Of a stretch of 64,000 bases of DNA, positions 429 through 21,695 are shown in pieces. Origin of the DNA: Escherichia coli (lineage in GTDB: Bacteria; Pseudomonadota; Gammaproteobacteria; Enterobacterales; Enterobacteriaceae); the NCBI RefSeq assembly GCF_041886205.1, contig NZ_CP169029.1. One strand, written 5' to 3'. Under the pieces are notes generated by a model, which saw nothing but the letters and a program-made list of their open reading frames with translations, searched no databases and was not told the origin of the DNA. Position 1 is the stretch's first letter; each line of letters starts with the position of its first letter. The position numbers and the translations under genes were made by a program.

Positions 429-1736
429 CTATCTCTGCCCAAACAGGTTAACGACATTGTTTTCCTGCTGTTGCTGGTGGTTATTCACCCGAGACTCCCA
501 GATCTCGAGAGCCTTACGCTTTTCAACCAGGTAATCGTAACGATCGTAGTGTTTAGAACTCACATCCTGTAGAGCATGGTTCTGAATGCGGTCACGCAGG
601 TCTTTAGCAATACCCGCTTCGCCCATCAGGGTCTTACAGGTACGACGAATATCACGCGCAATAAAAGATGGGCTCAACGCAAAGTGTTGCCGGTAATAAA
701 TGATGGCTTGTGCAAAGCTGTCTGTGCGTAGATGCTGTTCCGGTTTAATACGCTGCGGGAAGATGTAAGGACTCTGACTATGATTCTCAGCTTTCAACTT
801 TTCGAGTATCTCAATGGCTGACTCAGTCAAAGGCACCAGATGATCCCTTTTATTTTTCGACACATCCGCCACTATCAATAACGTTTTTTCTTCCCAGTTA
901 ACGGCATCCCAACGGCTGGAAACCAGTTCATGAGGCCGCTGGCCACCCGTATAGACACACAAGTTAAGCAATTGGCTGATTAACGGGCCGACCTTTGGTG
1001 CTTTAGGGAAATCCCCCATCAGTTGCTGCAACTCATCCAGCTTCAGCCAGTTTGTCCCTGCCTTCTCCGCTGCAGATTGTTTGGGTATGACACTCACTGG
1101 GTTCATTTGAAGCCCAAACATCACGTTCTGCTGGTGGTTTGCCGGATCGTTGTCAGCCTTCAACCCATAATTGAATGCTGCCATCAGATAAGAGCGAACA
1201 CGATTTGCTTCAACTGATGCGCCACGTTTAATAATGGTGGCCAGAATTTGTTTGATATGAGCGGGGATAACGTCACGCGCTTTCGTCGCTTTAGGTATAA
1301 ATGGATAGGTTTCTTTTTCCAGCCGGTACAAAACCTGTTGCCAGGTGCGTTTACCGTCTTCACGCATTTTGGTGGTGTAACCCAAAATGAGTTGCTCAAT
1401 GCTGCCTTTGAGCTGGTCTTCACGTTGTTGTTGTTCGGCAGAGAAAAGCTGCTCTGCGATTTCAGCTTTGGGGTCTTTCCCTTCTTTAAGAAGACCCGCA
1501 TGTTCTTTACATTGCTGTCTTGCCTGCGCGAGTGACAACTCTGGGAAACGGCCAAGCAGAATGAATTGCCGTTTTCCTTGCCAAAAATAACGATAGTAAA
1601 ATACTCGCTGACCCGATGGCTCAACTTTCACCCCTAATCGCCCTGCCCCACGCTCACCACTTTTATCCCATTCATAATAAGCAGTAGTCTTCGGCTTCAA
1701 GCCACTAATCATTGAGACAGTTAAATTATCAGCCAT
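429..1736 (-). CDS. int: Tyrosine recombinase / phage integrase, P4 family (start probably Met at 1736; longest ORF extends to 1838)
   Basis: N-terminal arm-binding-like segment (FYYRYFWQGKRQFILLGRFPELSLAQARQQ) and C-terminal catalytic region ending HYDRYDY with conserved R/H/R/Y pattern. Confidence 0.8.
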   Translation of the reverse strand: MADNLTVSMISGLKPKTTAYYEWDKSGERGAGRLGVKVEPSGQRVFYYRYFWQGKRQFILLGRFPELSLAQARQQCKEHAGLLKEGKDPKAEIAEQLFSAEQQQREDQLKGSIEQLILGYTTKMREDGKRTWQQVLYRLEKETYPFIPKATKARDVIPAHIKQILATIIKRGASVEANRVRSYLMAAFNYGLKADNDPANHQQNVMFGLQMNPVSVIPKQSAAEKAGTNWLKLDELQQLMGDFPKAPKVGPLISQLLNLCVYTGGQRPHELVSSRWDAVNWEEKTLLIVADVSKNKRDHLVPLTESAIEILEKLKAENHSQSPYIFPQRIKPEQHLRTDSFAQAIIYYRQHFALSPSFIARDIRRTCKTLMGEAGIAKDLRDRIQNHALQDVSSKHYDRYDYLVEKRKALEIWESRVNNHQQQQENNVVNLFGQR

Positions 1737-1930
1737 AGTATTTTTCAGTCCTTTGTTCGTTACGTCACCCAGTCTGATTCTGGGTGACGTAGTGGGTGAC
1801 GTAAGGATGATACTGAAGGTAAAAACGCAGAACAACATGAAACAACAACCAGCAAATAACCTACTGTTATTTATTAAATTTAATCTAACGTGAAAAAAGA
1901 TGCAAAATCATGAAACATGGATTTCATATG

Positions 1931-2731: not shown

Positions 2732-4081
2732 ATGTTAGTTAGTAAAAGCAACGAATTTAACACTAGCGCAGTTTTGGCTAGCAGGAATTATAATGAAAAC
2801 AATTCTTCCAACCCCATGGGGCTACTAGCTTATAGTATTTTAAATTTAATTTGTAAGGAAGCTGCCTCAGGGACGTACAACGGTGCTATTGAAATTTTAC
2901 AAAAAATGATGTCTGAATGTAAATATCAAGAAGGCAACGCCTTTGTCATTATGGGATCTGGAGAACAATTAAAACGTATTAAATATGATGTTGATGAAAA
3001 TAACTTAAAAGTATTCAACGTACACTTTAATAATAATGAAGAGTTAGTTACTGATGGTGAGCCTGACGTAGTATGTTTAAGCAAGCAGGAGTGGGAAAAT
3101 CTTCTCATTAAATTAAAACCGGAGATTAAAGAAAATGTGTTTTCTGAAAATAACAAATCATCGAGAGAAAATAATGTTGATCAGTATGTTCAATCCGCTA
3201 AAAGAAATGAACAGGCCCTTTTCGATAATATAATAAAAAGTGATTTTCATGTTGCTTCACTTCAGCCAGGTAGTACGCGTAGTGTTATTTCAGAAACGCC
3301 ACGAAATGTCTGTATGGAACCACGTAATTCCTATGAAACCAAAATAGATGAGATTTCATCTTTGTCAGAGTCAAAGGAACACTCCATAGATATTCAAGAA
3401 AAAACAGATGCGTTTGTGAATGAGTTCAAGGGGATATTATTTGATAAAAATGGAACGTCTTCAGAGTTTCTACTTAATTTTTATGAATGTTGCTATGAGT
3501 TTTTACCAAGAGCGCAGCCTCAGGATAAAATCGATAGCTATAATTCAGCACTGCAAGCTTTTTCCATCTTTTGTTCATCTACGTTGACACATAATAATAT
3601 AGGCTTTGATTTCAAATTATTTCCAGAAGTCAAGCTGTCTAGAGAACATCTTGAAACGGTATTCAAATACAAAAATGGCGATGATGTCCGGGAGATAGCC
3701 AAAATTAACATTACTCTCCAAAAAGAAGAGGGTGGTTTATATAATTTACGTGGATTAGATTTTAAGGGATGCTTCTTTTCTGGACAGAACTTCAGTAACT
3801 ATGATATTCAATATGTGAACTGGGGAACGTCATTGTTTGATCTTGATACTCCATGTATTTTTAATGCGCCTGCTTACAACAAGAGTAATGAAAAATCATT
3901 AGAACGCGTCAGCGAAAACGGTTTAAGTGGAGTCTTGTCTGATCGTAATAAAAAAATAAAACTCATCACGGGCGTGGCACCATTCGATGATATTTTATTT
4001 ATGGATGACGACTTTGATGATAGTTCCTCTGAGGATGATCCCGTTGAGAATAGTCCTGTTGTGACTAGTCCCCTTGTATAA
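2732..4081 (+). CDS. AT-rich hypothetical protein, ypjC-like, with pentapeptide-repeat-like segment near C-terminus
   Basis: 449-aa ORF, low GC, Asn/Ser-rich; segment NLRGLDFKGCFFSGQNFSNYDIQYVNW resembles pentapeptide repeats; position matches ypjC of K-12. Confidence 0.55.
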   Translation: MLVSKSNEFNTSAVLASRNYNENNSSNPMGLLAYSILNLICKEAASGTYNGAIEILQKMMSECKYQEGNAFVIMGSGEQLKRIKYDVDENNLKVFNVHFNNNEELVTDGEPDVVCLSKQEWENLLIKLKPEIKENVFSENNKSSRENNVDQYVQSAKRNEQALFDNIIKSDFHVASLQPGSTRSVISETPRNVCMEPRNSYETKIDEISSLSESKEHSIDIQEKTDAFVNEFKGILFDKNGTSSEFLLNFYECCYEFLPRAQPQDKIDSYNSALQAFSIFCSSTLTHNNIGFDFKLFPEVKLSREHLETVFKYKNGDDVREIAKINITLQKEEGGLYNLRGLDFKGCFFSGQNFSNYDIQYVNWGTSLFDLDTPCIFNAPAYNKSNEKSLERVSENGLSGVLSDRNKKIKLITGVAPFDDILFMDDDFDDSSSEDDPVENSPVVTSPLV

Positions 4082-4680: not shown

Positions 4681-5007
4681 TTTATGTGAGCAGAAGATAT
4701 TCATCAGAAACGATTATGTAAATCATTTTATTTTGCCGACTGCCTGATTGTCGAAAGAAAAGAATACGCCCGGGTTTCCTGAATAGATTGACTTTTTTAT
4801 CCAACCACACTTCAGCGCACTGCGTTTAAAAAATGCCTCATTCTTATGCGGAATATCATCATTTCATCATGATGTCTTTGATGAGCGGTGAACACAATAC
4901 ACTTGCGCTGTCTCTTCAGGATGAATCCCCTGGTCTGGTGCCTGTGGGCTGATGTTGCAGCAAAGCTAAGGTCGCTTAAACGCTACTCAGTATTCACTTT
5001 TCAGAGG

Positions 5008-8000
5008 ATGAAATTTATGAACAGGACCAGTCCCTATTATTTTCGCCGCTCAGTACTTTCCTTATTGATATCTGCCCTGATATATGCTCCGCCCGGGATG
5101 GCGGCCTTTACTACTAATGTTATTGGTGTGGTAAATGATGAGACTGTAGATGGCAACCAACGAGTAGATGAACGAGGTACAACAAATAACACTCATATTA
5201 TCAACCATGGCCAGCAGAGTGTTTATGGCGGAGTATCTAATGGAAGTATTATTGAATCGGGTGGATATCAAGATGTTGGAAGGAATAACAATTATATGGG
5301 GCAGTCTAATAATACAACCATTAACGGAGGAAGACAGACAATTCATGACGGGGGCATTTCCACCGGTACGATAATCGACAGTGGCAATCAGGACGTTTAT
5401 ACAGGTGGTATCAGCAATGGAACGACAATTAAGGGTGGTAATTCACACATAAGTGGGGGGACTGCGAATGGAACAATCATTGATGGTGGCAGCCAACGAG
5501 TAACAACGCAGGGGCATGTTGACAGTACAACGATAAATAAGTCTGGCTCTCAGGACATCACGCAAGGAAGTCTGGCGACGAACACAATCATAAATGGTGG
5601 ACGACAGTATGTTGAACAGAGCACAGTAGGAACAACCACCATTAAAAATGGCGGTGAGCAAAGAGTATATGAAAGCCATGCGCTGGACACGACGATTGAA
5701 GGTGGAACTCAGTCTCTGAATAATAAGTCAACGGCAAAAAATACTCAGATCTATTCTGGTGGTACGCAAATTGTTGATAACACCAGCACCTCGGATGTTA
5801 TTGAAGTTTATTCCGGTGGCGTGCTTGATGTTAGTGGTGGTACGGCAACAAATGTTACCCAGCACGATGGTGCAATTTTAAAAACAAACACTAACGGTAC
5901 GACGGTGAACGGTACGAATAGTGAAGGTGCATTCTCCATCCACAATCACGTGGCAGACAATGTGTTGCTGGAAAACGGTGGTCATTTAGACATAAACGCA
6001 TATGGTTCGGCAAACAAGACTATTATCAAAGATAAAGGAACAATGTCAGTTTTAACCAATGCTAAAGCTGATGCGACCCGAATAGATAACGGCGGGGTAA
6101 TGGATGTTGCCGGAAACGCGACCAATACCATAATTAATGGTGGCACACAGAATATTAATAATTATGGCATAGCCACGGGAACCAATATCAACAGCGGAAC
6201 GCAAAATATCAAGAGCGGCGGGAAAGCTGACACGACAATTATATCCTCCGGGAGCCGGCAGGTTGTTGAGAAAGATGGTACGGCAACTGGCAGCAATATT
6301 AGCGCCGGAGGCTCGCTGATTGTCTATACCGGCGGTATTGCACATGGGGTTAACCAGGAGACGGGCAGTGCTTTAGTTGCCAACACGGGTGCAGGGACTG
6401 ATATCGAAGGATACAACAAGCTCTCTCACTTCACTATTACCGGAGGGGAGGCTAATTATGTTGTGCTGGAAAATACCGGCGAACTGACGGTAGTGGCTAA
6501 AACCTCGGCGAAAAATACTACCATTGATACTGGCGGTAAGCTGATTGTCCAGAAGGAGGCTAAAACAGATAGCACCAGACTTAATAATGGCGGCGTTCTG
6601 GAGGTTCAGGACGGTGGTGAGGCTAAGCATGTTGAGCAACAATCCGGCGGCGCATTAATTGCTTCCACGACCTCCGGAACACTTATCGAAGGAACCAACA
6701 GTTATGGTGATGCTTTCTACATCAGGAATTCAGAAGCTAAAAATGTAGTGCTGGAAAACGCTGGCTCATTAACAGTCGTCACTGGTTCCCGGGCAGTTGA
6801 TACGATTATTAATGCCAATGGCAAAATGGATGTTTATGGAAAAGATGTTGGCACTGTACTTAATAGTGCTGGCACCCAAACAATATATGCCAGTGCCACT
6901 TCTGATAAAGCAAATATCAAAGGTGGCAAGCAAACGGTATATGGTTTAGCCACTGAAGCAAATATCGAAAGTGGTGAACAAATTGTTGATGGTGGGTCAA
7001 CAGAGAAAACACACATCAATGGTGGCACGCAAATCGTTCAGAATTATGGTAAGGCAATCAATACCGATATCGTCTCTGGCCTACAACAAATTATGGCAAA
7101 CGGGACAGCGGAAGGTTCCATTATTAATGGGGGTTCACAGGTAGTTAATGAGGGCGGTCTGGCTGAAAACTCGGTGCTTAATGACGGCGGCACACTCGAT
7201 GTGCGGGAGAAAGGCAGCGCAACGGGGATACAGCAGAGTAGCCAGGGCGCTTTGGTTGCAACCACCAGGGCGACGCGGGTCACAGGAACACGCGCGGATG
7301 GCGTCGCGTTCAGCATCGAGCAGGGTGCGGCGAACAATATCCTGCTGGCAAATGGCGGCGTGTTAACCGTGGAGTCAGACACCTCTTCTGACAAAACACA
7401 GGTCAATATGGGCGGACGGGAGATCGTCAAAACAAAAGCCACTGCGACAGGCACGACGCTCACCGGCGGTGAACAAATTGTCGAGGGTGTGGCGAATGAG
7501 ACAACAATTAACGACGGCGGAATACAAACAGTTTCAGCTAACGGAGAGGCAATAAAAACAAAGATCAATGAAGGCGGTACGCTGACAGTCAACGATAATG
7601 GCAAAGCGACAGATATCGTCCAGAACAGCGGTGCCGCTCTCCAGACGAGCACGGCTAACGGTATTGAAATCAGCGGTACTCACCAGTACGGTACTTTTTC
7701 CATTTCCGGCAATTTAGCGACCAATATGTTGCTGGAAAATGGCGGTAATTTATTGGTATTAGCAGGTACCGAAGCTCGCGACTCCACGGTTGGCAAGGGT
7801 GGGGCAATGCAAAACCTGGGTCAGGACTCCGCCACAAAGGTTAACTCTGGCGGGCAATATACCCTTGGGCGGTCAAAAGATGAGTTTCAGGCTCTGGCCC
7901 GGGCAGAAGATCTCCAGGTCGCTGGCGGTACGGCAATCGTCTACGCAGGTACGCTGGCGGATGCATCGGTCAGTGGCGCGACAGGAAGCCTGTCGTTAAT

Positions 8001-9597
8001 GACGCCACGGGATAATGTTACGCCAGTTAAACTCGAAGGGGCGGTCCGGATTACCGATAGCGCGACATTGACTCTGGGAAATGGCGTCGATACCACGCTT
8101 GCCGACCTGACGGCTGCCAGCCGGGGCAGTGTCTGGCTTAACAGCAATAATTCCTGTGCAGGTACCAGCAACTGCGAATATAGAGTAAACAGTTTGCTAC
8201 TCAACGACGGTGATGTTTATTTGTCAGCACAAACAGCAGCGCCTGCCACAACTAACGGTATCTACAATACGCTGACAACCAATGAACTTTCCGGTAGCGG
8301 TAATTTCTACCTGCATACCAACGTTGCAGGCTCCCGGGGCGATCAACTGGTCGTCAACAACAACGCCACTGGTAATTTTAAAATCTTTGTTCAGGATACC
8401 GGCGTCAGCCCACAGTCTGACGACGCGATGACGCTGGTGAAAACAGGGGGAGGGGATGCTTCGTTTACGCTGGGCAATACCGGCGGTTTCGTTGATCTTG
8501 GGACCTATGAGTATGTCCTGAAAAGTGACGGCAACAGCAACTGGAACCTGACCAATGATGTCAAACCCAACCCGGACCCCATCCCAAATCCAAAGCCAGA
8601 CCCAAAACCCGATCCAAAGCCAGACCCAAATCCAAAACCAGACCCTACTCCCGATCCAACGCCGACACCCGTTCCGGAGAAACGCATTACGCCTTCTACG
8701 GCAGCCGTACTCAATATGGCAGCAACATTACCGTTGGTATTTGATGCTGAGCTAAACAGTATTCGCGAGCGGTTGAACATAATGAAAGCGAGTCCACACA
8801 ACAATAATGTCTGGGGGGCGACGTATAACACCCGTAATAATGTCACCACCGATGCGGGTGCCGGGTTTGAGCAGACGCTGACCGGAATGACAGTGGGGAT
8901 CGACAGCCGTAATGATATTCCTGAAGGAATTACCACGCTAGGCGCTTTTATGGGCTATTCCCATTCACATATCGGTTTTGATCGCGGAGGACATGGCAGT
9001 GTGGGCAGTTATTCTCTGGGCGGCTATGCCAGTTGGGAACATGAAAGTGGTTTCTATCTGGACGGTGTCGTGAAGCTGAACCGTTTTAAAAGTAACGTAG
9101 CAGGTAAAATGAGCAGCGGTGGAGCCGCCAATGGCAGTTACCACAGCAACGGGCTGGGCGGTCACATTGAAACCGGGATGCGATTTACCGATGGTAACTG
9201 GAACCTGACGCCGTATGCATCGTTAACGGGGTTCACCGCTGATAACCCCGAATATCATTTATCCAATGGCATGGAATCGAAATCAGTCGATACCCGCAGT
9301 ATATATCGTGAACTGGGTGCAACGCTGAGTTACAACATGCGTCTGGGGAACGGTATGGAAGTTGAGCCGTGGCTGAAGGCGGCTGTGCGCAAAGAATTTG
9401 TCGATGATAACCGGGTGAAGGTGAATAATGACGGTAATTTCGTCAATGATTTGTCGGGCAGACGTGGAATATACCAGGCAGGTATTAAAGCCTCATTCAG
9501 TAGTACGTTAAGCGGGCATCTCGGGGTGGGGTATAGCCATGGTGCCGGTGTGGAATCACCGTGGAACGCGGTGGCTGGTGTGAACTGGTCGTTCTGA
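5008..9597 (+). CDS. ypjA: Large adhesin-like autotransporter (ypjA-like); start assigned to the signal-peptide Met, ORF opens at 4888
   Basis: Signal peptide (MKFMNRTSPYYFRRSVLSLLISALIYAPPGMAA), long passenger of about 19-residue Gly/Thr/Asn-rich repeats, Pro-Asp-Lys linker, C-terminal beta-barrel ending VNWSF. Confidence 0.85.
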   Translation: MKFMNRTSPYYFRRSVLSLLISALIYAPPGMAAFTTNVIGVVNDETVDGNQRVDERGTTNNTHIINHGQQSVYGGVSNGSIIESGGYQDVGRNNNYMGQSNNTTINGGRQTIHDGGISTGTIIDSGNQDVYTGGISNGTTIKGGNSHISGGTANGTIIDGGSQRVTTQGHVDSTTINKSGSQDITQGSLATNTIINGGRQYVEQSTVGTTTIKNGGEQRVYESHALDTTIEGGTQSLNNKSTAKNTQIYSGGTQIVDNTSTSDVIEVYSGGVLDVSGGTATNVTQHDGAILKTNTNGTTVNGTNSEGAFSIHNHVADNVLLENGGHLDINAYGSANKTIIKDKGTMSVLTNAKADATRIDNGGVMDVAGNATNTIINGGTQNINNYGIATGTNINSGTQNIKSGGKADTTIISSGSRQVVEKDGTATGSNISAGGSLIVYTGGIAHGVNQETGSALVANTGAGTDIEGYNKLSHFTITGGEANYVVLENTGELTVVAKTSAKNTTIDTGGKLIVQKEAKTDSTRLNNGGVLEVQDGGEAKHVEQQSGGALIASTTSGTLIEGTNSYGDAFYIRNSEAKNVVLENAGSLTVVTGSRAVDTIINANGKMDVYGKDVGTVLNSAGTQTIYASATSDKANIKGGKQTVYGLATEANIESGEQIVDGGSTEKTHINGGTQIVQNYGKAINTDIVSGLQQIMANGTAEGSIINGGSQVVNEGGLAENSVLNDGGTLDVREKGSATGIQQSSQGALVATTRATRVTGTRADGVAFSIEQGAANNILLANGGVLTVESDTSSDKTQVNMGGREIVKTKATATGTTLTGGEQIVEGVANETTINDGGIQTVSANGEAIKTKINEGGTLTVNDNGKATDIVQNSGAALQTSTANGIEISGTHQYGTFSISGNLATNMLLENGGNLLVLAGTEARDSTVGKGGAMQNLGQDSATKVNSGGQYTLGRSKDEFQALARAEDLQVAGGTAIVYAGTLADASVSGATGSLSLMTPRDNVTPVKLEGAVRITDSATLTLGNGVDTTLADLTAASRGSVWLNSNNSCAGTSNCEYRVNSLLLNDGDVYLSAQTAAPATTNGIYNTLTTNELSGSGNFYLHTNVAGSRGDQLVVNNNATGNFKIFVQDTGVSPQSDDAMTLVKTGGGDASFTLGNTGGFVDLGTYEYVLKSDGNSNWNLTNDVKPNPDPIPNPKPDPKPDPKPDPNPKPDPTPDPTPTPVPEKRITPSTAAVLNMAATLPLVFDAELNSIRERLNIMKASPHNNNVWGATYNTRNNVTTDAGAGFEQTLTGMTVGIDSRNDIPEGITTLGAFMGYSHSHIGFDRGGHGSVGSYSLGGYASWEHESGFYLDGVVKLNRFKSNVAGKMSSGGAANGSYHSNGLGGHIETGMRFTDGNWNLTPYASLTGFTADNPEYHLSNGMESKSVDTRSIYRELGATLSYNMRLGNGMEVEPWLKAAVRKEFVDDNRVKVNNDGNFVNDLSGRRGIYQAGIKASFSSTLSGHLGVGYSHGAGVESPWNAVAGVNWSF

Positions 9598-9607
9598 CCA
9601 TCAACGA

Positions 9608-9630
9608 AAAAGCCCACATCTGTGGGCTTT
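9608..9630 (+). terminator. Hairpin downstream of ypjA (AAAGCCCACA-tctg-TGTGGGCTTT)
   Basis: Perfect 10-bp inverted repeat 11 nt after the stop codon; weak U-tract. Confidence 0.4.
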
Positions 9631-9760
9631 CATGTTACCAGGAGCCGCGGCTCTTTTGCGTATCCTGTTTTGTCTCCTCACCGTCTGGTCGGTGTCCTGC
9701 TGAGGCTGCTAACTTCCTGTTTTTGTTGGTGTTGTCCTTACACCGTCCAATCATGATTGG

Positions 9761-9771
9761 GCTGGCGGAGT
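9761..9771. other. Putative distal att core (imperfect repeat of ssrA 3' end)
   Basis: GCTGGCGGAGT resembles GCTGGCGGGAGT at the tmRNA 3' end (window 21340-21351); short and imperfect. Confidence 0.3.
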
Positions 9772-9825
9772 CTGAATAACATTTGCAACATAATGTTTTT
9801 ATTGTTTATTTTCCAATTCAACTTT

Positions 9826-10070: not shown

Positions 10071-10079
10071 CCGGGTAGG

Positions 10080-12413
10080 TTATGTCGCGGTGGTTTCGTC
10101 GCACCGGGGCAGCCAGTCGGCGTTGCTTTCCTCCCTGAGCGCAAGGTTCGTCTGCATCCCCTGATTTGTTCGCCGCCTGGCGTAATTCAGCCCGTACTCT
10201 TTCAGCATCGATGACAGCCCTTTGCCGAACATGGTCAGGCTGAGGGTGTTCTTGTAGCCGTGCGCCTCCATGTAAACCAGATAGGCGTGATACAGGTACA
10301 GGCGCGGCTGTCGCGGGATGATATTCGCATTCCCCATGTACATACCGTCAGGCTCGGGCAGCGCCTCCAGATAGCCACAAAAATCGAATGTCGGGTCAGC
10401 GTCGCGCTTGATGCTGAGTGCCTCGTCGGAGTTCTGCTGCGACTGGAGCAGTGTGCGCGCGGTCATCGGGTCGCTGAACGTCTGCATAAGCTGACGCACG
10501 ATGACGGCCAGCTCGCGGGCAATTTTATCTTTCAGCTTCGGGTCACGCTCCTCCGGGGCAATCTGTTCCGGGAAGTGCATTATCACCCGGCGACGCGACA
10601 CGCCGCCGCTGCGGTCGGTGAAGCGCATCGGATTGTTGTTTACGGCCAGTATCACCGCCGGAATATGGGTGGAGTACGCATCGCGGTATTTCGGGTCAAC
10701 CGAGACCGCATCCCCGCCGGTGATGGCCTTGAGTCCTGCCCCGTCACCGCTCCATTTCTCCTGGTCAGGCAGACGTATCAGCGAGAAGCCAATCAGCGCC
10801 GCGCGCTCGCGGGGGGATTCCAGCGTTTCGATAGTCGCTGACGTGGCGTTATCTTCCCCGGCGAGCATGGTCGCTATTTCGGCCAGAATACTTTTCCCGC
10901 TGCCACCGGGACCGGTCACTTCGAGGAAGAGCTGCCAGTCGTAGCGGTTCGCCAGCACCATAAACAGCGCGGCGAGTATCACGTCACGTTTATCGGCACG
11001 CGAACCGGCGGCGCGGTCGAGCCAGCGCCAGAAATTCGGCGCGTGCGTCTCCAGCGTTTCCCCCTCCACCGGCGGGGTGAAATCCACGTCGCACAGGGTG
11101 CGCAGCCAGTGCGTTTTGCTGTGCGGGCTGAATATACCGGTACTGGTATCAAGCACGCCGTTGCGAAAGCCAATCAGCCGCCGTGGCGGGGCATCCTGCT
11201 GCGGAATAATCAGTTTCAGGGTGTCCACCACCGAGGCAATTTTCCCCGACGAAAACGGGGCGCGCAGACGCTGGAACAGCCCGGCCACGTCGCGCGCAAA
11301 GTCTGACGGCGGAATGATTTTCCATATACCGGCTTCATAGCGGGACAGGAGCTGCCCGTTCGCATCCACCGCCAGCGCTTCGCCGTAATGCTCATGCACC
11401 CGCATGGCTTTCTCACTGGTGCTCATGGCGGTAAATTCCGCCTCGCTCATGGTAGAGAAAGGGCTTTCAGCCGGTGGCCGGATGGCGTCATACATGGCTT
11501 TACGCGTGGCCTCCCCACCGTGCTGTGTATACGCATCATTCCAGTCACCGAACACCGGCGGCAGGGCGACCACGCCCTCACAGGACTCTGCGGCCGCAGA
11601 CGCTTTGGTCTGGCCGTCGCCGTTAAGGTCACGGTCGGCGGCAATGACAATCCGGCAGGCCGGGTATTTGTGACGGGCAAGGCTCGCCAGAGAAAGGAGG
11701 TTCACCGACGACAGCGCCACCATGACGGTTTCGCCGGTCAGGTGATGCACGGTGAGCGCGGTCGCGTAGCCCTCCGCTATCCACAGCCGTTTTCCCGCCT
11801 CTTTTTTCCCGTCGAGAATATGACATGTCCCTTTTACCTGCCCCCCTTTCAGGGTGCGCTTGAGACCGTCCGCGTTAATGAGCTGGACGTTAACCAGTGC
11901 GCCGCTATCGTCATACAGCGGGACAACCACATCCCCGGCACGGTACGTCACACCGCCGGTTTTGTGCATGGCCGTCAGTACCTGACATTCCCGGCCGGGA
12001 AAGCCCTTGCGGGTGAGGTAGGCGTTGCCGGTGGCCGGTTGGGTTTTCTCCATCAGTCTGGCGGCCAGCGCGGCCGCCGCTTTGCGGTCGGCCTCCGTTT
12101 CAGCGTCTGCGGCCGCAGTCACCGCCGGGGATACCGGAGGCAGGTTGCCGGTCACGGCGTTCACCTTCCCGGCCGCCTCTGACGGGGTCACGCCGAACAC
12201 TTTCTCAACCAGTTTCAGACCGTCCCCCGCGCCGCACTGGTTACAGAACCACGTCCCGCGTCCCTCCTTATCGTCAAAGCGAAAGCGGTCGGAGCCGCCA
12301 CACACCGGACAGGCCTGATGACGGTTTTTGATGACCGTTACCCCCAGCGCCGGGAGAATGCGCGGCCAGTGGCCGCACGCCTGTTTCACGGTGTCCGTTA
12401 CGTTCATTTTCAT
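10080..12413 (-). CDS. P4 alpha-like primase-helicase (777 aa)
   Basis: N-terminal zinc-binding cysteine pairs (CPVCGG ... CNQCG), central primase region, Walker A (GPGGSGKS) helicase domain; size identical to P4 alpha. Confidence 0.9.
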   Translation of the reverse strand: MKMNVTDTVKQACGHWPRILPALGVTVIKNRHQACPVCGGSDRFRFDDKEGRGTWFCNQCGAGDGLKLVEKVFGVTPSEAAGKVNAVTGNLPPVSPAVTAAADAETEADRKAAAALAARLMEKTQPATGNAYLTRKGFPGRECQVLTAMHKTGGVTYRAGDVVVPLYDDSGALVNVQLINADGLKRTLKGGQVKGTCHILDGKKEAGKRLWIAEGYATALTVHHLTGETVMVALSSVNLLSLASLARHKYPACRIVIAADRDLNGDGQTKASAAAESCEGVVALPPVFGDWNDAYTQHGGEATRKAMYDAIRPPAESPFSTMSEAEFTAMSTSEKAMRVHEHYGEALAVDANGQLLSRYEAGIWKIIPPSDFARDVAGLFQRLRAPFSSGKIASVVDTLKLIIPQQDAPPRRLIGFRNGVLDTSTGIFSPHSKTHWLRTLCDVDFTPPVEGETLETHAPNFWRWLDRAAGSRADKRDVILAALFMVLANRYDWQLFLEVTGPGGSGKSILAEIATMLAGEDNATSATIETLESPRERAALIGFSLIRLPDQEKWSGDGAGLKAITGGDAVSVDPKYRDAYSTHIPAVILAVNNNPMRFTDRSGGVSRRRVIMHFPEQIAPEERDPKLKDKIARELAVIVRQLMQTFSDPMTARTLLQSQQNSDEALSIKRDADPTFDFCGYLEALPEPDGMYMGNANIIPRQPRLYLYHAYLVYMEAHGYKNTLSLTMFGKGLSSMLKEYGLNYARRRTNQGMQTNLALREESNADWLPRCDETTAT

Positions 12414-12424
12414 GGTGTTCTCCC

Positions 12425-12745
12425 TCAGTGCAGCGCCGGTGCGGTGATATGACGGGCGCAGAGTTCATCCATCACGGCCAGCCCGAGAAAGGACAGCGAC
12501 GGCGCGGCCTTGAGTGGTCCGGCTTCCATTAAATCTTCGAGCAGGGCACAGGCAATCTGACGGCCTTTTTCCTCGCCATGCTGGCGCAGGTAGAAGCCCT
12601 CCAGCTCGGTCGCAATGGCGCTTTCCAGCGTACTGAGCGTGAGCTGCGGGTAGCGGTGCTGACGTTCGCACAGGGTCAGCCATGCACAGGCCACGGCGCG
12701 GCGATAGAGCGCGGCGCGTAAGACGGGCGTTAATGGCTTTTTCAT
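12425..12745 (-). CDS. Hypothetical protein (106 aa), satellite left operon
   Basis: ORF abutting the alpha start in the same operon. Confidence 0.45.
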
Positions 12746-13002
12746 ACGTTGCGCTCCCCGGCCAGCCAGCGCTGATTGCAGCGTTCGACCACACCTTCAA
12801 GCCGGGCGGTCATGAGGTAAATCACCGAGGTGAGCTGTAGCTGCTGCGCCGGATTGTGGCGCAAAGAGGTGCAGTCCTGCACCTGCATCAGTTCGCCGAC
12901 GAGCTGGCCGACGTTGCGAAGATGTTCGAGGCATTCGAGGTCTGCCCGGCTGATGGTGGGCTGGTTTATATTCTGCGACCGTTCCGTACTGTTAACAGGC
13001 AT
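12742..13002 (-). CDS. Hypothetical protein (about 86 aa; start at Met with AGGAG upstream)
   Basis: ORF with Shine-Dalgarno-like AGGAG before ATG at 13002; 4-nt overlap with downstream gene. Confidence 0.4.
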
Positions 13003-13073
13003 TATTTCGTCTCCTGAGGACGTGCGTATCCCTGCGCAGATACGCACATTTTATTTTGGGGTGTCGTTTTTAA

Positions 13074-13523
13074 TTACAGATAACGGCGGTAGCTGTTATC
13101 CGGTTTTATTTCCGTTTCCAGCCTGAAATTATTCCGCCATTTATGCGCCACCGGCGCCGGGCGTTTAACCGGGGGAATATCATCAGGATAGTTATCGATA
13201 TTCCGCGCCCGGTATTGCTGTAATGCCGGGTCGGCCGCTATTTCGCGTAATACGGCGTGGCGGTTTTCAGGGTTGCGCTTAAATACATCGGGATGCTCAC
13301 AGGTAAAGTCCCGCAAAAAACGACTGAGCGGAATTTCTGCCATACGGCCACCGGCAATAATACGAATGAGGATGGTGTAGGTGCGCCGGTAAGGGTTCCA
13401 GACCAGCCCCGGACAGCGGTACGGCATATCCCACGGAATACCGTCGGCCAGCACGCCCGACACCACCACATCAGGAAATCCTGTACAGCGATATGTTTCG
13501 CCCGGCTGAGGGAAATCAAACAT
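13074..13523 (-). CDS. P4 orf151-like protein (149 aa)
   Basis: Position and size match P4 orf151 upstream of alpha; GGAGG before ATG. Confidence 0.5.
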   Translation of the reverse strand: MFDFPQPGETYRCTGFPDVVVSGVLADGIPWDMPYRCPGLVWNPYRRTYTILIRIIAGGRMAEIPLSRFLRDFTCEHPDVFKRNPENRHAVLREIAADPALQQYRARNIDNYPDDIPPVKRPAPVAHKWRNNFRLETEIKPDNSYRRYL

Positions 13524-13815
13524 GGTGCTCCCCTCCGTTTCCCGACGTCGTGGCGAGAAAGTCACGGCACAGGCCTTTGGCTTTCAGCTCTTCCAGGACG
13601 TAGCTGACGTCCTCATGGATATAACTAAAAATCTGCGGCAGGTATAGCTGGTGTAAACCGTTCAGCTCACGGCGCAGCAAATCTCCACCGATGAACTGCG
13701 AGACGGCGCTGGCGCGATTGAGTTTATGGTACGCCTCAATGCTGAGGTGTTCCTGCATGGGGTTAAGGTCATCACGACGCGCTGAGATGGTCTGAGGGGT
13801 GTTTTTATTATGCAT
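13516..13815 (-). CDS. Small protein (99 aa), position of P4 epsilon
   Basis: In-frame Met inside a longer ORF; overlaps neighbours by 8 nt; position equivalent to epsilon. Confidence 0.45.
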
Positions 13816-14005
13816 GTGACACCTCCACAACCGGCAGACGGGCGGCAAGGGAAAGCACGTATTCCCGGACAAGGGTGCGGCGGGCGGCCAGCTCGTCACC
13901 GGCCACGGTGCGGAGCATACAGATACGGGGTTTACGGTCTGCACGACGGACGGCGGCAAACACAAAGACAAACTGAGGGTGTGACGGGGTGAGGGTCGTA
14001 GCCAT
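13808..14005 (-). CDS. Small protein (65 aa), position of P4 kil/eta
   Basis: AGGAGG 7 nt upstream of ATG at 14005; overlaps downstream gene start. Confidence 0.35.
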
Positions 14006-14403
14006 AAGGCAACCTCCTTCGAGTAGCAAATTATTGCTATCGCCGGAGTTCTCACGCTCAGTGGCGATAGCCCAGACGGGGGTGAGAATACCGGCCTCGA
14101 AGAATACCGGCCAGCCCGAGGGCTGCCCCGCCTGAGCTACCATTGACATGACAGCATGATATGCGATTGCGGACAGGAGACACAAAGTGACGTCTGCACG
14201 ACGATCCGCACACCACGCCATTATCTGGCGCTCTGTGGCGTTAGTTGCGACACAAAAAAAGACGCATGGCGCGTCTGGTGTCGCCTTCGAGTTACTCGGG
14301 TTCTCACGCCCGGTTACCGATTTTGCGGCAACAGCAAAACTGTACCAGGAAACACACAACGGATGCAAGCCAGAAAAAGGGGCTTTGTGAAATCGGCTCT
14401 GAT

Positions 14404-14670
14404 TCATGCGTCGTATTTCCGGTTGCGGTGCGCGACACGTTCTTCCATCCATGCCGTGATTTCAGACTGTAGCCAGGCGACATTTTTACCCCCGAGGGAA
14501 ACCTGCGCCGGGAAAGCGTTACGGGCGATTAAATCGTAGAGCGTGGAGCGGGACAGGCCGCACTGATGAATGACTTCCGGGAGACGTAAAAAACGTTCCT
14601 GAGTCGGGGCTGAAACCGGCATCGGGTGCGCGGCAGTGGGGGACGGTGGTGCTGATGAAACTGTGTGCAT
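14404..14670 (-). CDS. Vis/AlpA-family transcriptional regulator (start may be internal Met at 14622)
   Basis: [28 protein letters not shown] is an AlpA-type HTH; 88 aa as for P4 Vis; divergent from sid. Confidence 0.7.
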
Positions 14671-14944
14671 AACGCTACCTCGTTAATATCCGCAGAGATC
14701 CGGACGTATCCGTCCGGTATCAGGTAGCGCTCTATTTTGTGAATATTTTTCTTCAATGCAACAGAGGCATGTTGTGTCGTGGAGCAGTTTTGTCTGTTAT
14801 TTAAGCAGCGACCTGAAAATATGAAAAATAATTGGCACATGACGCGCTGAGACGTTCATAAATCACAGTCAATTGATATCGCCTATCAATAGATAAAAAT
14901 ATAATTATTAAAACAATGACTCTCTAAAAGGAGCTTGCCGAAAC

Positions 14945-15050
14945 CAGTGAACAGTAGTGAACAGTTGGTGAACACTTTTCTCTCAACTGTTCACTCTTTA
15001 ATTTATTGTTTTATTTATATTTTTATACTGAGTGAACAGTAGTGAATAGT
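14945..15050. repeat. Second TGTTCAC iteron cluster in the divergent vis/sid control region (crr-like)
   Basis: Six copies of GTGAACA/TGTTCAC in an AT-rich intergenic region about 5 kb from the first cluster. Confidence 0.5.
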
Positions 15051-15218
15051 TATATGTAAAAAAACAAATAGAGTGAGGGGTTTTCCTGCGACCTTTCTCT
15101 GGCCAGCCGGGTTTTTAAGTCCTGTTTGTGCCATGTCTGCGACAACGGCAATGAATCGAGTTGTTGTCTGAGGGACGGCAGAATGGCGTCAGGTTGAAAA
15201 CACAGAGAGAACCCGACG

Positions 15219-16022
15219 ATGAAACCAGATTTGTTTACCGCAGTAATGAAAACCATCGGCAGCACGCAGGATGAGAACATCCGCACGGCCATTGACAGCG
15301 CACTGGATACCCTTAACGAGAAAGCAAACCAGAACGCAGAGGCCACGATAAATAATGCGCTTGAGGCATTCAGCAAGGCCAAATCCGCGCACACGGAAAA
15401 TATGCTGAAACTGAATGATATTGATGCGGCCATTACCCGCAGTGAGAAAGAGCGTCAGAACGCCCTGAATGAAAGTGCCGAAGCGGAACAGAACTGGCGT
15501 ACCCGTTTTCGCGAACTGCGCGGCATGATGACCCCGGAACTGAAAGCCGAACACAGTCAGCGAGTGGCCGGTCGGGAGCTGGCGGAGGAATTCACCGCCC
15601 TGATTGATGAGCTCAACGATGATAAAGCCAGTACCATGCTGGCCGCCTGTACATCAGGAGATAAGTACGTCGGCACGCATTTTACGGTGTTCTCTGCCTA
15701 CTCCCGGAATGAGTGGGCGACCGTGATGAAAGACATCCCTCCCTCACTGGTGCGCGCATTTGCGTTACGTCTGCGTGAACTCGAAATGAAAGGAGAAGAA
15801 CACCCTCACAACGTTCTCATTCAGGAACTGGGGGAGAATGTACTGGCGCAAAGCAGGTACTACACATTCAACATGGCGCAGGAGCCGGTAATTTCAAAAA
15901 TTGGGCTTCACCGTCCGGCACTCACCGGCGTGGATATGAAACTCTATAAAAGCCCGGTTCTCAGAATGGCGCGGGCTAAAGAGCTGGCACAGAAGAAAAA
16001 ATCGCGGGGGGTTAAGCCATGA
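15219..16022 (+). CDS. sid: Sid-like capsid size-determination (external scaffold) protein
   Basis: Similarity to P4 Sid (NWRTRFRELRGMMTPELKAEHSQRVAGRELAEEF); first gene of sid-delta-psu. Confidence 0.75.
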   Translation: MKPDLFTAVMKTIGSTQDENIRTAIDSALDTLNEKANQNAEATINNALEAFSKAKSAHTENMLKLNDIDAAITRSEKERQNALNESAEAEQNWRTRFRELRGMMTPELKAEHSQRVAGRELAEEFTALIDELNDDKASTMLAACTSGDKYVGTHFTVFSAYSRNEWATVMKDIPPSLVRAFALRLRELEMKGEEHPHNVLIQELGENVLAQSRYYTFNMAQEPVISKIGLHRPALTGVDMKLYKSPVLRMARAKELAQKKKSRGVKP

Positions 16023-16261
16023 TGCGCTGTCCGTACTGCAAACAGGCTGCCCATGTCCGTACCAGCCGTTACCTGTCGGATAACGTCAAACAGAGCTACC
16101 TCCAGTGCGTGAATGTCTTTTGCTCCGCAACCTTTCGCACCACCGAGTCTATCGACGAGGTAATACGGCCACCGGCAGAAGAAAAGCCCGAACCGCCGCA
16201 GACAGTACCAGAAACACCGCCCCGAATTCTGGACTGCGCCCGGTCATCGCTGCGCCACTGA
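16019..16261 (+). CDS. Delta/Ogr-type zinc-finger late transcription activator
   Basis: MMRCPYCKQAAHVRTSRYLSDNVKQSYLQCVNVFCSATF with C-x2-C ... C-x4-C pattern typical of P2 Ogr/P4 Delta; 4-nt overlap with sid. Confidence 0.85.
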   Translation: MMRCPYCKQAAHVRTSRYLSDNVKQSYLQCVNVFCSATFRTTESIDEVIRPPAEEKPEPPQTVPETPPRILDCARSSLRH

Positions 16262-16277
16262 TTCAGGAGAAAAGACA

Positions 16278-16853
16278 ATGGCACGAGCACTACTGGAACA
16301 GGCCTTTGAAACCTGTCAGAAGAATAAATCGGACTGGGTGAGCAGCAAGTCAGCACTGGCGCGGGCTGAAATGGCGCTGAAAGAGCTGGAGCTGACCTGC
16401 ACCCGTTATGAACCGGAGGCCGCACAGGCGCTGCGGGATGATATTGACCTGAAAAAATGGGCGGTAAATCAGTCGGCCGGGCAGTACATCCGGTCACATG
16501 AGGCCGTGCAGCGTATCAGTATCCGGCGTCAGCTCCACGCCTTTATGCAGGTAAGCGGCGACGCGCTGGCCGCCGCACTGGCACCGGAATTAATGCATCT
16601 CTGCGAACAACCTGACATTGTCAGAGAACGGGCTCTCGACCGGGCGGCCGCCAGTGTTCGCGAAGCGCTGTCCGTTTATGTAACCCGCGGAGGAAATATT
16701 GATTACGCAGAGGATGATCGCGACATTCTGACAACCATCGGTTTCCGGCCTGACAGAGCATCGAGAGACGACAACCGGGCAAAATATACGCCTGAACAGA
16801 GTCAGATTTTCATGCGCCGACAGGCCGCGCAGACCCGCAAAAAATCCGCATAA
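16278..16853 (+). CDS. psu: Psu-like polarity suppression / capsid decoration protein
   Basis: KWAVNQSAGQYIRSHEAVQRISIRRQL and ALAAALAPEL and DILTTIGFRPD match P4 Psu; 191 aa. Confidence 0.85.
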   Translation: MARALLEQAFETCQKNKSDWVSSKSALARAEMALKELELTCTRYEPEAAQALRDDIDLKKWAVNQSAGQYIRSHEAVQRISIRRQLHAFMQVSGDALAAALAPELMHLCEQPDIVRERALDRAAASVREALSVYVTRGGNIDYAEDDRDILTTIGFRPDRASRDDNRAKYTPEQSQIFMRRQAAQTRKKSA

Positions 16854-17017
16854 AACGCCCCGAAAATACCCGTCTTTTTAATAAAAATAGCCATGCATGC
16901 CTACGCTGCATGGCTTTGCATGCAAAAACCTGAATTTTCCACACCCCGCCGCACCAGCACTGGCGCGGCCTGAGTCCCTTCATGCGCCTGCATTAAAAGT
17001 GCCCCACGAAGCGGGCA

Positions 17018-17036
17018 GGCGTGGCGGGGAGAGCAT
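17018..17036. other. cos-like cohesive-end site
   Basis: GGCGTGGCGGGGAGAGCAT matches 16 of 19 positions of the P2/P4 cohesive end as I recall it; lies after psu as in integrated P4. Confidence 0.45.
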
Positions 17037-19960: not shown

Positions 19961-21148
19961 TTAATGATTTACTTTATCTCCCCACCAATCCATCAACTCA
20001 ACTCTTTGAAGTAAATAAGTTGAACGGTTGTAAGCTTTTCGAACTTCATTTTTGTCTGAGTGTGCTAATGCTGCTTCAATAACATCAGAATTAAATCCGG
20101 CTTCATTGAGTGCAGTACTTGCGATGGACCGTAACCCGTGAGCAACTAATTTCCCACCATAACCAATACGCTTAAGTGCGGCATTAGCAGTCTGACTATT
20201 CATTGGTTGCTTAGGGTTATTTCTGCTGGGAAAAACATGTTCACGGTGAGCGCTGATTGGTTTCATCACTTCCAGAATATCTAACGCCTGAGGAGATAGT
20301 GGGACTATGTGCTCACGCTTAGCTTTCATCCGTTCGGCAGGAATTGTCCAGAGCTTTGCATCAAGATCGATCTCTGCCCACCGGGTACTGGAAGCCTCAG
20401 AAGGGCGCACAAGGGTCAGGAGTTGCCATTCGATTAGACAGCGAGTCGGAACAGACAGATTTGACATGACTAAAGAACGCATCAGCTTCGGCAATTCTTC
20501 TGGCCGCAACGTCGGCATGTTTTGCTTTTTGGGCTTCTCAAAGGCCATGCCAACACCGGATGCTGGATTGGCATCAATCAGACCAGTGTTTACGGCATAA
20601 ATCATGATTTCGTTAATGCGCTGCACCAGTCGACGTACAGTCTCAAGCGCCCCACGTGCTTTTATTGGCTCAAGGGCTTCAACCAAAGTTCGGGCTTTGA
20701 TTTGCTGAACGGGGATCTCACCGATGGCAGGGAATACATCTTTCTCCAGTGAACGCCAAATGTCTTTTGCGTAATCAGGGGTAACGCTTTTGCTTTTGAG
20801 ATGGAACCAGTTAGCGGCGACCGTTGAAAAAATACTGTCCAGAGCGATTTGCTGCTGTTCCTCTGCAACTTCGGCCTGAATTTGCGGGTCAATTCCGTTG
20901 GCTAACAAGGCAAGGTAATCCGCTCTTAACCCTCGGGCGTCAGCAAGTGAGAGGGCGGGGAAAGCACCTAGCCCCATCATTGTCCGCTGTTTTGTCGCCG
21001 GACGTTGATAACGGAAACGCCAGAGCTTTTTCCCGCTGGTTTTCACTATCAGGAAAAGGCCATCGCCATCATGCAGCGTTAGATCCTTCTCTAACGCTTT
21101 AGCGCGCAGAACTTCGGTGTTGGTCAGGGGGCGTGTTGTCCGTGCCAC
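19961..21148 (-). CDS. int: P4-family integrase (IntA-like) next to ssrA
   Basis: 395 aa; N-terminal LWRFRYQRPATKQRTMMGLGAFPALSLADAR arm-binding-like domain; catalytic C-terminal domain; immediately downstream of tmRNA 3' end. Confidence 0.9.
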   Translation of the reverse strand: MARTTRPLTNTEVLRAKALEKDLTLHDGDGLFLIVKTSGKKLWRFRYQRPATKQRTMMGLGAFPALSLADARGLRADYLALLANGIDPQIQAEVAEEQQQIALDSIFSTVAANWFHLKSKSVTPDYAKDIWRSLEKDVFPAIGEIPVQQIKARTLVEALEPIKARGALETVRRLVQRINEIMIYAVNTGLIDANPASGVGMAFEKPKKQNMPTLRPEELPKLMRSLVMSNLSVPTRCLIEWQLLTLVRPSEASSTRWAEIDLDAKLWTIPAERMKAKREHIVPLSPQALDILEVMKPISAHREHVFPSRNNPKQPMNSQTANAALKRIGYGGKLVAHGLRSIASTALNEAGFNSDVIEAALAHSDKNEVRKAYNRSTYLLQRVELMDWWGDKVNH

Positions 21149-21332: not shown

Positions 21333-21695
21333 TGGTGGAGCTGGCGGGAGTTGAACCCGCGTCCGAAATTCCTACGTCCTCGGTACTACATGCTTAGTCA
21401 GTCTTTACATTCGCTTGCCAGCTGCGGACGGACACGCCACTAACAAACTAGCCTGATTAAGTTTTAACGCTTCAACCCCAGGCAGGGCTTCCACGCGATC
21501 TCTTTTGGGTTTGACCTCTCTTGATCCCCGTCCTAAGAGCGGAGGCTAGGGAGAGAGGGCTCTAAGCAGGTTATTAAGCTGCTAAAGCGTAGTTTTCGTC
21601 GTTTGCGACTATTTTTTGCGGCTTTTTACGAGGCCAACCGCCCCTCGGCATGCACCTTGGGTTTCGCAAATCCCGTCGAATCCAGAATCAGCCCC
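21333..21695 (-). ncRNA. ssrA: tmRNA (SsrA), 363 nt
   Basis: Reverse complement begins GGGGCTGATTCTGGATTCGACGGGATTTGCGAAACC and ends GGTTCAACTCCCGCCAGCTCCACCA; ANDENYALAA tag template region present. Confidence 0.95.

What the first reader, a model, noticed from the sequence alone, without database searches (positions are those of the whole stretch)
14945..15050. Second TGTTCAC iteron cluster inside the divergent vis/sid control region (crr-like)
Six more copies of the same heptamer lie about 5 kb from the first cluster, in the AT-rich region between the leftward vis operon and the rightward sid-delta-psu operon. P4 needs a second cis-acting region (crr) several kb from ori with the same repeats; the position here also overlaps where Delta/Ogr-dependent late promoters are expected, so replication and late transcription signals may be interleaved.
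Basis: partly seen in the sequence, partly recalled or inferred. Interest (0 to 1): 0.35.

Follow-up and report, generated by a model that had tools for sequence, protein, structure and literature searches.

The report
P4-type satellite replication origin (ori, not crr)
The repeat cluster is real.

Summary
Window 14947-15048 carries five exact copies of GTGAACA/TGTTCAC and one single-mismatch copy (GTGAATA). About 0.014 exact copies are expected in 110 bp, and no more than 2 clustered in any of 300 simulated sequences.

The window holds a complete P4-like satellite prophage of about 11.6 kb, integrated at ssrA. Its alpha primase-helicase is 84% identical to P4 alpha.

The interpretation has the two site names swapped. 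GenBank record X51522 of P4 annotates the origin of replication between orf88 (vis) and sid. It has six 'ori type 1 repeats' in the order - - - + [AT-rich] - -, at spacings of 10, 11, 22, 43 and 10 bp. The window cluster aligns to that site with the same order and near-identical spacing (10, 11, 20, 44, 10).

The annotated crr lies directly downstream of alpha.

The 37-bp spacer between iterons 4 and 5 is 89% A+T and is the least stable stretch of the whole element. The architecture recurs in 78 of 80 related satellites.

The late promoters flank the iterons and do not overlap them: the Psid delta box starts 79 bp to the right.

Verdict: a new member of a known kind, of low interest.

The parts
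14945..15051 (.). Homologue of the P4 replication origin (ori / ori1): six alpha iterons plus an AT-rich spacer
   Evidence: It aligns to P4 9308-9415 at 72% identity, with all six annotated 'ori type 1 repeats' in register.
14947..14953 (-). Iteron 1 (TGTTCAC on the - strand; octamer TGTTCACT)
   Evidence: Exact match; aligns to P4 9310-9317; invariant in 76 distinct family sequences.
14957..14963 (-). Iteron 2
   Evidence: Exact match; aligns to P4 9320-9327; 10 bp from iteron 1.
14968..14974 (-). Iteron 3
   Evidence: Exact match; aligns to P4 9331-9338; 11 bp from iteron 2.
14988..14994 (+). Iteron 4, the only one in inverted orientation
   Evidence: Exact match; aligns to P4 9353-9360, which is also the only + strand repeat in the P4 ori.
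14995..15031 (.). 37-bp AT-rich spacer, the presumed DNA-unwinding element
   Evidence: 89% A+T. It is the most AT-rich and least stable 37-bp window of the whole 11.6-kb element: -35.2 kcal/mol against a mean of -51.1. Its length is conserved to within about 1 bp in the family.
15032..15038 (-). Iteron 5
   Evidence: Exact match; aligns to P4 9396-9403.
15042..15048 (-). Iteron 6, degenerate (GTGAATA)
   Evidence: One mismatch; aligns to P4 9406-9413. GTGAATA is the commonest form at this position in the family.
   Evidence: It aligns to the second 120-bp crr repeat of P4 (4471-4590), directly downstream of the conserved alpha terminator.
10080..12413 (-). alpha gene: primase-helicase and origin-binding protein, 777 aa
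   Evidence: 84% identical to P4 alpha over 775 aa. It has Zn-ribbon, Toprim, D5_N and Pox_D5 domains. Residues 671-770 match the P4 origin-binding domain PDB 1KA8, E = 1.7e-44.
12425..12745 (-). orf106 homologue (DUF5375). From memory, this is the P4 cnr copy-number regulator
   Evidence: Pfam DUF5375, E = 1e-63; same position as P4 ORF106.
14404..14670 (-). vis (orf88 / AlpA family), first gene of the leftward operon
   Evidence: Pfam Phage_AlpA, E = 6e-19; same position as P4 ORF88.
15127..15144 (+). Psid Delta/Ogr box TGT-N12-ACA. A -10-like CAGAAT at 15179-15184 and a start near 15191 are inferred
   Evidence: Pattern match. A box is present at a fixed 84-86 bp after the start of iteron 6 in about 78 related loci and in P4.
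15219..16022 (+). sid, first gene of the rightward late operon
   Evidence: BLASTP against P4 Sid: 28% identity, E = 1e-23. It is followed by delta (Ogr_Delta) and psu (Psu).

Best explanation
The cluster at 14945-15051 is the replication origin (ori1-type) of a complete P4-like satellite prophage integrated at ssrA in an E. coli chromosome.

Proposed mechanism, carried over from P4. The satellite's own alpha protein (primase + SF3 helicase + C-terminal winged-helix origin-binding domain) binds the six TGTTCAC iterons here and the matching iterons of crr, 5 kb away just downstream of the alpha gene. The two sites are brought together. The 37-bp, 89% A+T segment between iterons 4 and 5 melts. 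Alpha then loads as a helicase, primes with its own primase, and replication proceeds from this site.

What is shown here: the sites, their order, orientation and spacing; homology to the annotated P4 ori; the intact alpha protein with its origin-binding domain; the partner crr; the exceptional instability of the spacer; and conservation across 78 related satellites.

What is inferred from P4: binding, ori-crr pairing, melting and the initiation point.
For: (1) P4 record X51522 annotates 'origin of DNA replication' at 9086..9809, between ORF88 and sid. It has six 'ori type 1 repeats' at 9310, 9320 and 9331 (-), 9353 (+), and 9396 and 9406 (-). It annotates crr at 4291-4590, next to the alpha terminator. 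X05623 agrees on crr.

(2) The window cluster aligns to the P4 ori repeats one for one, with the same orientations. Spacings are 10, 11, 20, 44, 10 bp against 10, 11, 22, 43, 10 in P4. Identity over the core is 72%.

(3) The other cluster (9939-10029) aligns to a crr unit and the alpha terminator.

(4) Alpha is full length, 84% identical to P4 alpha, and its C-terminus matches the solved P4 origin-binding domain 1KA8.

(5) The spacer is the least stable 37-bp window of the element.

(6) In 78 of 80 IMG/VR P4-like loci the same cluster lies 268-302 bp from the vis ATG, with the same spacing pattern. The two loci without it lack enough upstream sequence. Iteron heptamers show 93-100% mean pairwise identity, against 53% for the left flank.

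(7) The element looks intact: int, cos (17018-17036), sid, delta, psu, and att at the 3' end of ssrA.
Against: Binding by alpha, ori-crr looping and the initiation point are carried over from P4, partly from my memory of papers that the library does not hold.

The eighth base of the P4 octamer (TGTTCACC) is T in five of the six repeats here.

crr has one 120-bp-type unit rather than P4's two.

The prophage could be replication-defective for reasons not visible in the sequence.
Confidence: 0.9

Rival explanations
1. One reading: this cluster is the crr-like auxiliary cis region, and the cluster at 9939-10029 is the origin.
For: Both sites carry the same heptamer and lie about 5 kb apart. Without the P4 annotation the two cannot be told apart by the motif alone.
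Against: In P4, crr is annotated directly downstream of alpha, as 120-bp units with repeats ordered + + - - +. The origin is annotated between ORF88 and sid, with repeats ordered - - - + - -. The window cluster aligns to the latter, and the 9939-10029 cluster aligns to crr and the alpha terminator.
Confidence: 0.03
2. The repeats are operator sites for a transcription regulator (Vis, Delta or a helper protein) that controls the divergent PLL/Psid promoters. On this reading they are not replication sites.
For: The cluster lies in the divergent control region. A highly conserved block and the Psid delta box follow it at a fixed distance.
Against: The same heptamer array recurs downstream of alpha, where there is no promoter. 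Delta/Ogr boxes have a different sequence (TGT-N12-ACA), and none lies inside the cluster. The integrase arm-type repeats near the attachment sites (att) are GGTATACC-type, not TGTTCAC. P4's annotation assigns these repeats to the origin.
Confidence: 0.03
3. The site is a true ori homologue but an inactive relic in a domesticated or defective prophage.
For: Many P4-like elements lack components (PMC8628076). Here crr has a single unit, and the strict PLL delta box is lost through a 7-bp deletion relative to P4.
Against: All six repeats, their spacing and the AT spacer are intact. Alpha, orf106, int, cos, sid, delta and psu are all full length. Single-unit crr is common in the family: 29 of 68 loci.
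Confidence: 0.06
4. The cluster is a chance or low-complexity repeat in AT-rich DNA.
For: The region is AT-rich.
Against: Five exact heptamers fall within 92 bp, against an expectation of about 0.014 per 110 bp. No simulation out of 300 exceeded 2. The heptamers are invariant across 76 distinct related sequences while the adjacent flank is not.
Confidence: 0

Closest known systems
Bacteriophage P4 origin of replication (ori / ori1; X51522 rep_origin 9086..9809, type 1 repeats 9310-9413)
   Same: Position between vis (orf88) and sid. Six TGTTCAC repeats in the order - - - + [AT-rich] - -. Spacing of about one helical turn within the triplet and the pair. An AT-rich spacer of about 37 bp. A cognate alpha protein with a 1KA8-type origin-binding domain. 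A partner crr about 5 kb away.
   Different: Only 72% identical over the core. The eighth base of the octamer is T rather than C in five of six repeats. The sixth repeat is GTGAATA. The spacer between iterons 3 and 4 is 2 bp shorter. P4's 'ori type 2 repeats' (9176-9205), to the left of the iterons, have no counterpart.
Bacteriophage P4 crr (cis replication region; X51522 4291-4590, X05623)
   Same: It uses the same alpha iterons and is required together with ori. The requirement is from the annotation note 'cis required region for replication' and from my memory of Flensburg & Calendar 1987.
   Different: crr lies directly downstream of the alpha terminator next to att. It is built of 120-bp units with repeats ordered + + - - +, and it has no long AT-rich spacer. 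The finding matches none of these. The window's crr is at 9939-10029 and has one unit instead of two.
Iteron-type origins of plasmids and of Gram-negative phage-inducible chromosomal islands (PICIs; two iteron sets flanking an AT-rich melting region)
   Same: The general logic is shared: initiator-binding repeats flank an AT-rich segment. PICI origins are described this way in PMC6092414.
   Different: The initiator here is a single primase-helicase-winged-helix polypeptide. The origin is bipartite, with a distant second site (crr). PICI Pri-Rep proteins are reported to differ in sequence from P4 alpha (PMC6092414).

Membership tests
P4-type ori (ori1) | Six type 1 repeats (core TGTTCAC) in the order and orientation - - - + / - - | tested here: met
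   against the P4 annotation, with the alignment.
P4-type ori (ori1) | AT-rich segment of about 35 bp between repeats 4 and 5 | tested here: met
   37 bp, 89% A+T; the least stable window of the element.
P4-type ori (ori1) | Location between orf88/vis and sid | tested here: met
   vis at 14404..14670 (-) and sid at 15219..16022 (+); P4 map.
P4-type ori (ori1) | Sequence homology to the P4 ori core | tested here: met
   77 of 107 aligned columns identical; alignment A1.
P4-type ori (ori1) | Cognate alpha protein with a C-terminal origin-binding winged-helix domain | tested here: met
   84% identity to P4 alpha; residues 671-770 match PDB 1KA8 at E = 1.7e-44.
P4-type ori (ori1) | Partner crr with the same repeats elsewhere on the element | tested here: met
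   9939-10029 aligns to the P4 crr unit.
P4-type ori (ori1) | Full octamer TGTTCACC as annotated in P4 | tested here: inconclusive
   The eighth base is T in five of six repeats here. However, P4's own annotated type 1 repeats include TGTTCACA and GGTGAATA, and the family shows C, T and mixed forms. The eighth base therefore does not look like a defining feature.
P4-type ori (ori1) | Bound by alpha; site where replication starts; needed in cis | not testable with these tools
   Needs footprinting, replication assays or origin mapping.
P4 crr | Lies directly downstream of the alpha terminator, next to att | tested here: not met
   The finding lies 2.5 kb upstream of the alpha start codon, on the other side of the gene.
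P4 crr | 120-bp unit(s) with repeats ordered + + - - +, homologous to P4 4291-4590 | tested here: not met
   The repeat order is - - - + - -, and the region aligns to the P4 ori, not to crr.
Delta/Ogr-dependent late promoter | TGT-N12-ACA dyad centred near -55, inside the flagged interval | tested here: not met
   No such box lies in 14945-15050. The nearest is at 15127-15144 and belongs to Psid.

The most novel reading that the evidence does not exclude
This lineage may form a separate replication-specificity group. Five of six ori repeats and about half of the crr repeats carry TGTTCACT instead of P4's TGTTCACC. This goes together with a distinct class of alpha origin-binding domain (LSLTMFGKG...RRRTNQGMQ against P4's LSLKMFGLG...KRHTKQGIQ).

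Among 75 classified loci, 17 of 24 class-A domains sit with an ori that has three or more T-type repeats. None of 51 class-B domains do.

If the eighth base is read by the winged helix, co-resident P4-like satellites of the two classes would replicate independently of each other.

A second open point is the 67-bp conserved block, and the fixed 84-86-bp distance between iteron 6 and the Psid delta box. These could couple origin activity and late transcription.
Probability: 0.12. Interest if true: 0.4.

Novelty: new member of a known kind. Interest (0 to 1): 0.1.

Why it matters
It matters mainly for correct annotation. In P4-like satellites the repeat cluster between vis and sid is the origin, and the one downstream of alpha is crr.

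The comparison of 80 related elements shows that the six-repeat/AT-spacer architecture and its distance to the sid promoter are nearly invariant. That agrees with the published sensitivity of the P4 origin to small insertions, which I cite from memory.

Nothing here changes the current understanding of P4 replication.

Tried and rejected
**Literature.** Primary P4 replication papers are not in the held library: Tocchetti 1999, Ziegelin 1993, Saha 1989 and the Christie & Dokland review. Text searches for ori/crr/iteron terms returned only peripheral papers. I therefore relied on the feature tables of X51522 and X05623, and I mark recalled details as memory.

**Promoter overlap.** A strict TGT-N12-ACA search found only the Psid box near the finding. 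The generic sigma-70 and terminator scan of 14600-15260 gave no more hits than shuffles.

**Integrase arm sites.** I considered this and rejected it. The arm-type repeats near the attachment sites (att) are GGTATACC-type in the window and GGGGGCA-type in P4.

**Specificity switch.** I considered a strict alpha/iteron specificity switch and did not adopt it. Three loci (L010, L012, L020) combine a class-A alpha domain with an all-C ori. The crr association can be explained by physical linkage to the alpha 3' end. The loci are also not phylogenetically independent.

**Not run.** I did not run a genome-wide or metagenome scan for more distant P4-like origins. The cost was not justified for an element this well explained.

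Full report
**Observation.** The flagged interval reads ccaGTGAACAgtaGTGAACAgttgGTGAACActtttctctcaacTGTTCACtc, then a 37-bp AT-rich stretch, then gaGTGAACAgtaGTGAATAgtt. Exact heptamers lie at 14947, 14957 and 14968 (- strand), 14988 (+ strand) and 15032 (- strand). A sixth, one-mismatch copy (GTGAATA) lies at 15042. The window has 18 exact matches against 8.0 +/- 2.7 in shuffles, and ten of the 18 sit in two clusters. In 300 first-order Markov simulations the largest number within 110 bp was 1 or 2, against 5 observed. The Poisson probability is about 4e-12 per position.

**Context.** Megablast of 8000-20000 hits phage P4 at 79% identity, covering window 9939-14749 against P4 4494-9109 in the same orientation. 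Protein searches identify the following genes:

| Gene | Coordinates (strand) | Note |
|---|---|---|
| alpha | 10080..12413 (-) | 84% identical to P4 alpha |
| orf106 / DUF5375 | 12425..12745 (-) | |
| Ash/Icd-like | 13808..14452 (-) | |
| vis / AlpA | 14404..14670 (-) | |
| sid | 15219..16022 (+) | 28% identical to P4 Sid |
| delta | 16019..16261 (+) | 80 aa |
| psu | 16278..16853 (+) | |
| integrase | 19961..21148 (-) | |

- A cos-like site lies at 17018-17036.
- The tmRNA gene ssrA lies at 21333..21695 (-).
- A short att-like match joins 9758-9776 and 21335-21354.
- The flank is E. coli recN-smpB-ssrA.

The window therefore carries a complete P4-like satellite prophage of about 11.6 kb, at roughly 9758-21354.

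**What the cluster is.** The feature table of the P4 genome (X51522) places 'origin of DNA replication' at 9086..9809, between ORF88 (vis) and sid. It lists six 'ori type 1 repeats' there: 9310, 9320 and 9331 on the - strand, 9353 on the + strand, and 9396 and 9406 on the - strand. The same record places 'crr (cis required region for replication)' at 4291-4590, directly after the alpha terminator. crr is made of two 120-bp direct repeats, each with type 1 repeats ordered + + - - +. X05623 agrees on crr.

A pairwise alignment puts the six window repeats in register with the six P4 ori repeats. Orientations are identical. Spacings are 10, 11, 20, 44, 10 bp against 10, 11, 22, 43, 10 in P4. Identity over the core is 72%.

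The cluster at 9939-10029 instead aligns to the second crr unit of P4 and to the alpha terminator.

**Anatomy that bears on mechanism.**
- Repeats 1-3 and repeats 5-6 are spaced by about one helical turn.
- A 21-bp unit holding repeats 1-2 recurs 85 bp downstream as repeats 5-6, at 95% identity.
- The 37-bp spacer between repeats 4 and 5 is 89% A+T. It is both the most AT-rich and the thermodynamically least stable 37-bp window of the whole element: -35.2 kcal/mol against a mean of -51.1 +/- 5.6.
- Alpha has zinc-ribbon, Toprim, D5_N and Pox_D5 domains. Its residues 671-770 match the solved P4 origin-binding domain 1KA8 at E = 1.7e-44.
- Published summaries state that P4 alpha binds the origin repeats through a winged-helix domain and then unwinds and primes (PMC4234260; PMC8628076).
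- From memory, not verifiable here: Flensburg & Calendar 1987, Ziegelin et al. 1993 and Tocchetti et al. 1999 showed that alpha binds the type I repeats of both ori and crr. They also showed that a minimal ori1 of about 123 bp holds the six repeats and a 35-bp AT-rich region, and that deleting a repeat or inserting 6-10 bp inactivates it.

**Comparative test.** A scan of IMG/VR with the alpha protein returned 80 loci, 83-98% identical in alpha.
- In 78 of them a heptamer cluster lies upstream of alpha. The two exceptions lack enough upstream sequence.
- Measured from the vis ATG, the cluster starts at 268-302 bp with spacings of 10, 11, 20-22, 43-45 and 10 bp.
- Over 76 distinct sequences, mean pairwise identity is 0.93-1.00 for the six heptamers. 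It is 0.82 for the AT spacer, 0.74 for the spacer between repeats 3 and 4, and 0.53 for the left flank 14880-14944.
- Where enough downstream sequence is available, a crr-type cluster usually begins 53-70 bp after the alpha stop codon. It has a single unit in 29 loci and a double unit in 39.

The architecture is a conserved feature of the family, and the single-unit crr seen here is common.

**Promoters.** No TGT-N12-ACA box lies inside the cluster.
- The Psid box is at 15127-15144, starting 79 bp after the last repeat. Together with a -10-like CAGAAT at 15179-15184, it predicts a start near 15191. This start is an inference.
- A box at the same relative position, 84-86 bp after the start of repeat 6, occurs in P4 and in essentially all related loci.
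- P4 also has a second box 38 bp further on. The window has only a degenerate version of it.
- On the vis side, P4 has a box 103 bp from the vis ATG. The window lacks a strict box there, because of a 7-bp deletion relative to P4.

Replication and late-promoter signals share one intergenic region, but they lie side by side rather than interleaved.

**Variation that might matter.**
- The eighth base of the octamer is C throughout the P4 ori, but T in five of six repeats here and in about half of the crr repeats.
- Across the family this goes with two classes of alpha C-terminal domain. For class A (LSLTMFGKG), 17 loci have three or more T-type ori repeats, 4 have one or two, and 3 have none. For class B (LSLKMFGLG, including P4), the counts are 0, 12 and 39.
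- Three loci (L010, L012, L020) combine class A with an all-C ori. crr is physically linked to the alpha 3' end, and the loci are not independent. I therefore regard a specificity switch as possible but unproven.

**Verdict.** The cluster is real and is the orthologue of the P4 replication origin. This is a new member of a well-known kind, of low interest.

Noticed in passing
window 9939-10029; loci L010, L014, L018, L022, L059, L069, L082: crr here has a single 120-bp-type unit, whereas P4 has two. In the family, 29 loci have a single unit and 39 a double unit. Several loci carry a crr-like cluster 1.3-2.3 kb beyond alpha, either as a second cluster or in place of the adjacent one, as if DNA had been inserted between or before the units.
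   Followed up: partly
window 15052-15118: A 67-bp block between iteron 6 and the Psid delta box (...GGTTTTCCTGCGACCTTTCTCTGGCCAGCCGGGTTTT) has mean pairwise identity of 0.82, and most columns are at least 90% conserved, across 76 P4-like sequences. Its length is fixed, with iteron 6 to the delta box always 84-86 bp. Its function is unknown. It includes a weak terminator-like hairpin at 15098-15111.
   Followed up: partly
window 14739-14745: An iteron-like GTGAATA lies 69 bp from the vis ATG, inside the conserved block TATTTTGTGAATATTTT of the PLL region. It is found at the same offset (68-69 bp) in most related loci and in P4. Whether alpha binds it is unknown.
   Followed up: no
window 14760-14945: The window lacks the strict Delta box that P4 has 103 bp from the vis ATG, because of a 7-bp deletion relative to P4. 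It also lacks any counterpart of P4's three 'ori type 2 repeats' (CCACTTAAAGTCATTTAAAGCCACTTAAAG). The segment between PLL and the iterons is poorly conserved in the family. From memory, the P4 type 2 repeats resemble helper Cox-protein boxes, so this could reflect a different helper specificity.
   Followed up: partly
window 16019-16261 and 15219-16022: Delta is an 80-aa single Ogr/Delta zinc-finger protein, whereas P4 Delta is 166 aa. Sid is only 28% identical to P4 Sid although alpha is 84% identical. The left and right halves of the element therefore have a mosaic history.
   Followed up: no
window 17105-19801: Two cargo genes lie between cos and int, the usual variable region of P4-like satellites. 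One is a 526-aa protein with a C-terminal HEPN_LA2681 domain (+ strand). The other is a 328-aa protein with a weak Hjc-like nuclease match (- strand). Neither hits PADLOC models. They are a candidate uncharacterised defence pair.
   Followed up: partly
window 429-9760: A second island lies directly to the left of the satellite. It has another tyrosine integrase (429..1838 -), a DUF5507/DUF5508 protein (2732..4081 +) and a 1569-aa AIDA/pertactin-type autotransporter adhesin (4888..9597 +). A stretch at about 9607-9760 matches an annotated 'tmRNA pseudogene' in a phage record. This suggests tandem integrations at ssrA.
   Followed up: partly
ori and crr repeats, window and loci L003-L082: The eighth base of the repeat (C or T) varies in concert between ori and crr, and with two sequence classes of the alpha origin-binding domain. 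There are three apparent recombinants: L010, L012 and L020.
   Followed up: yes
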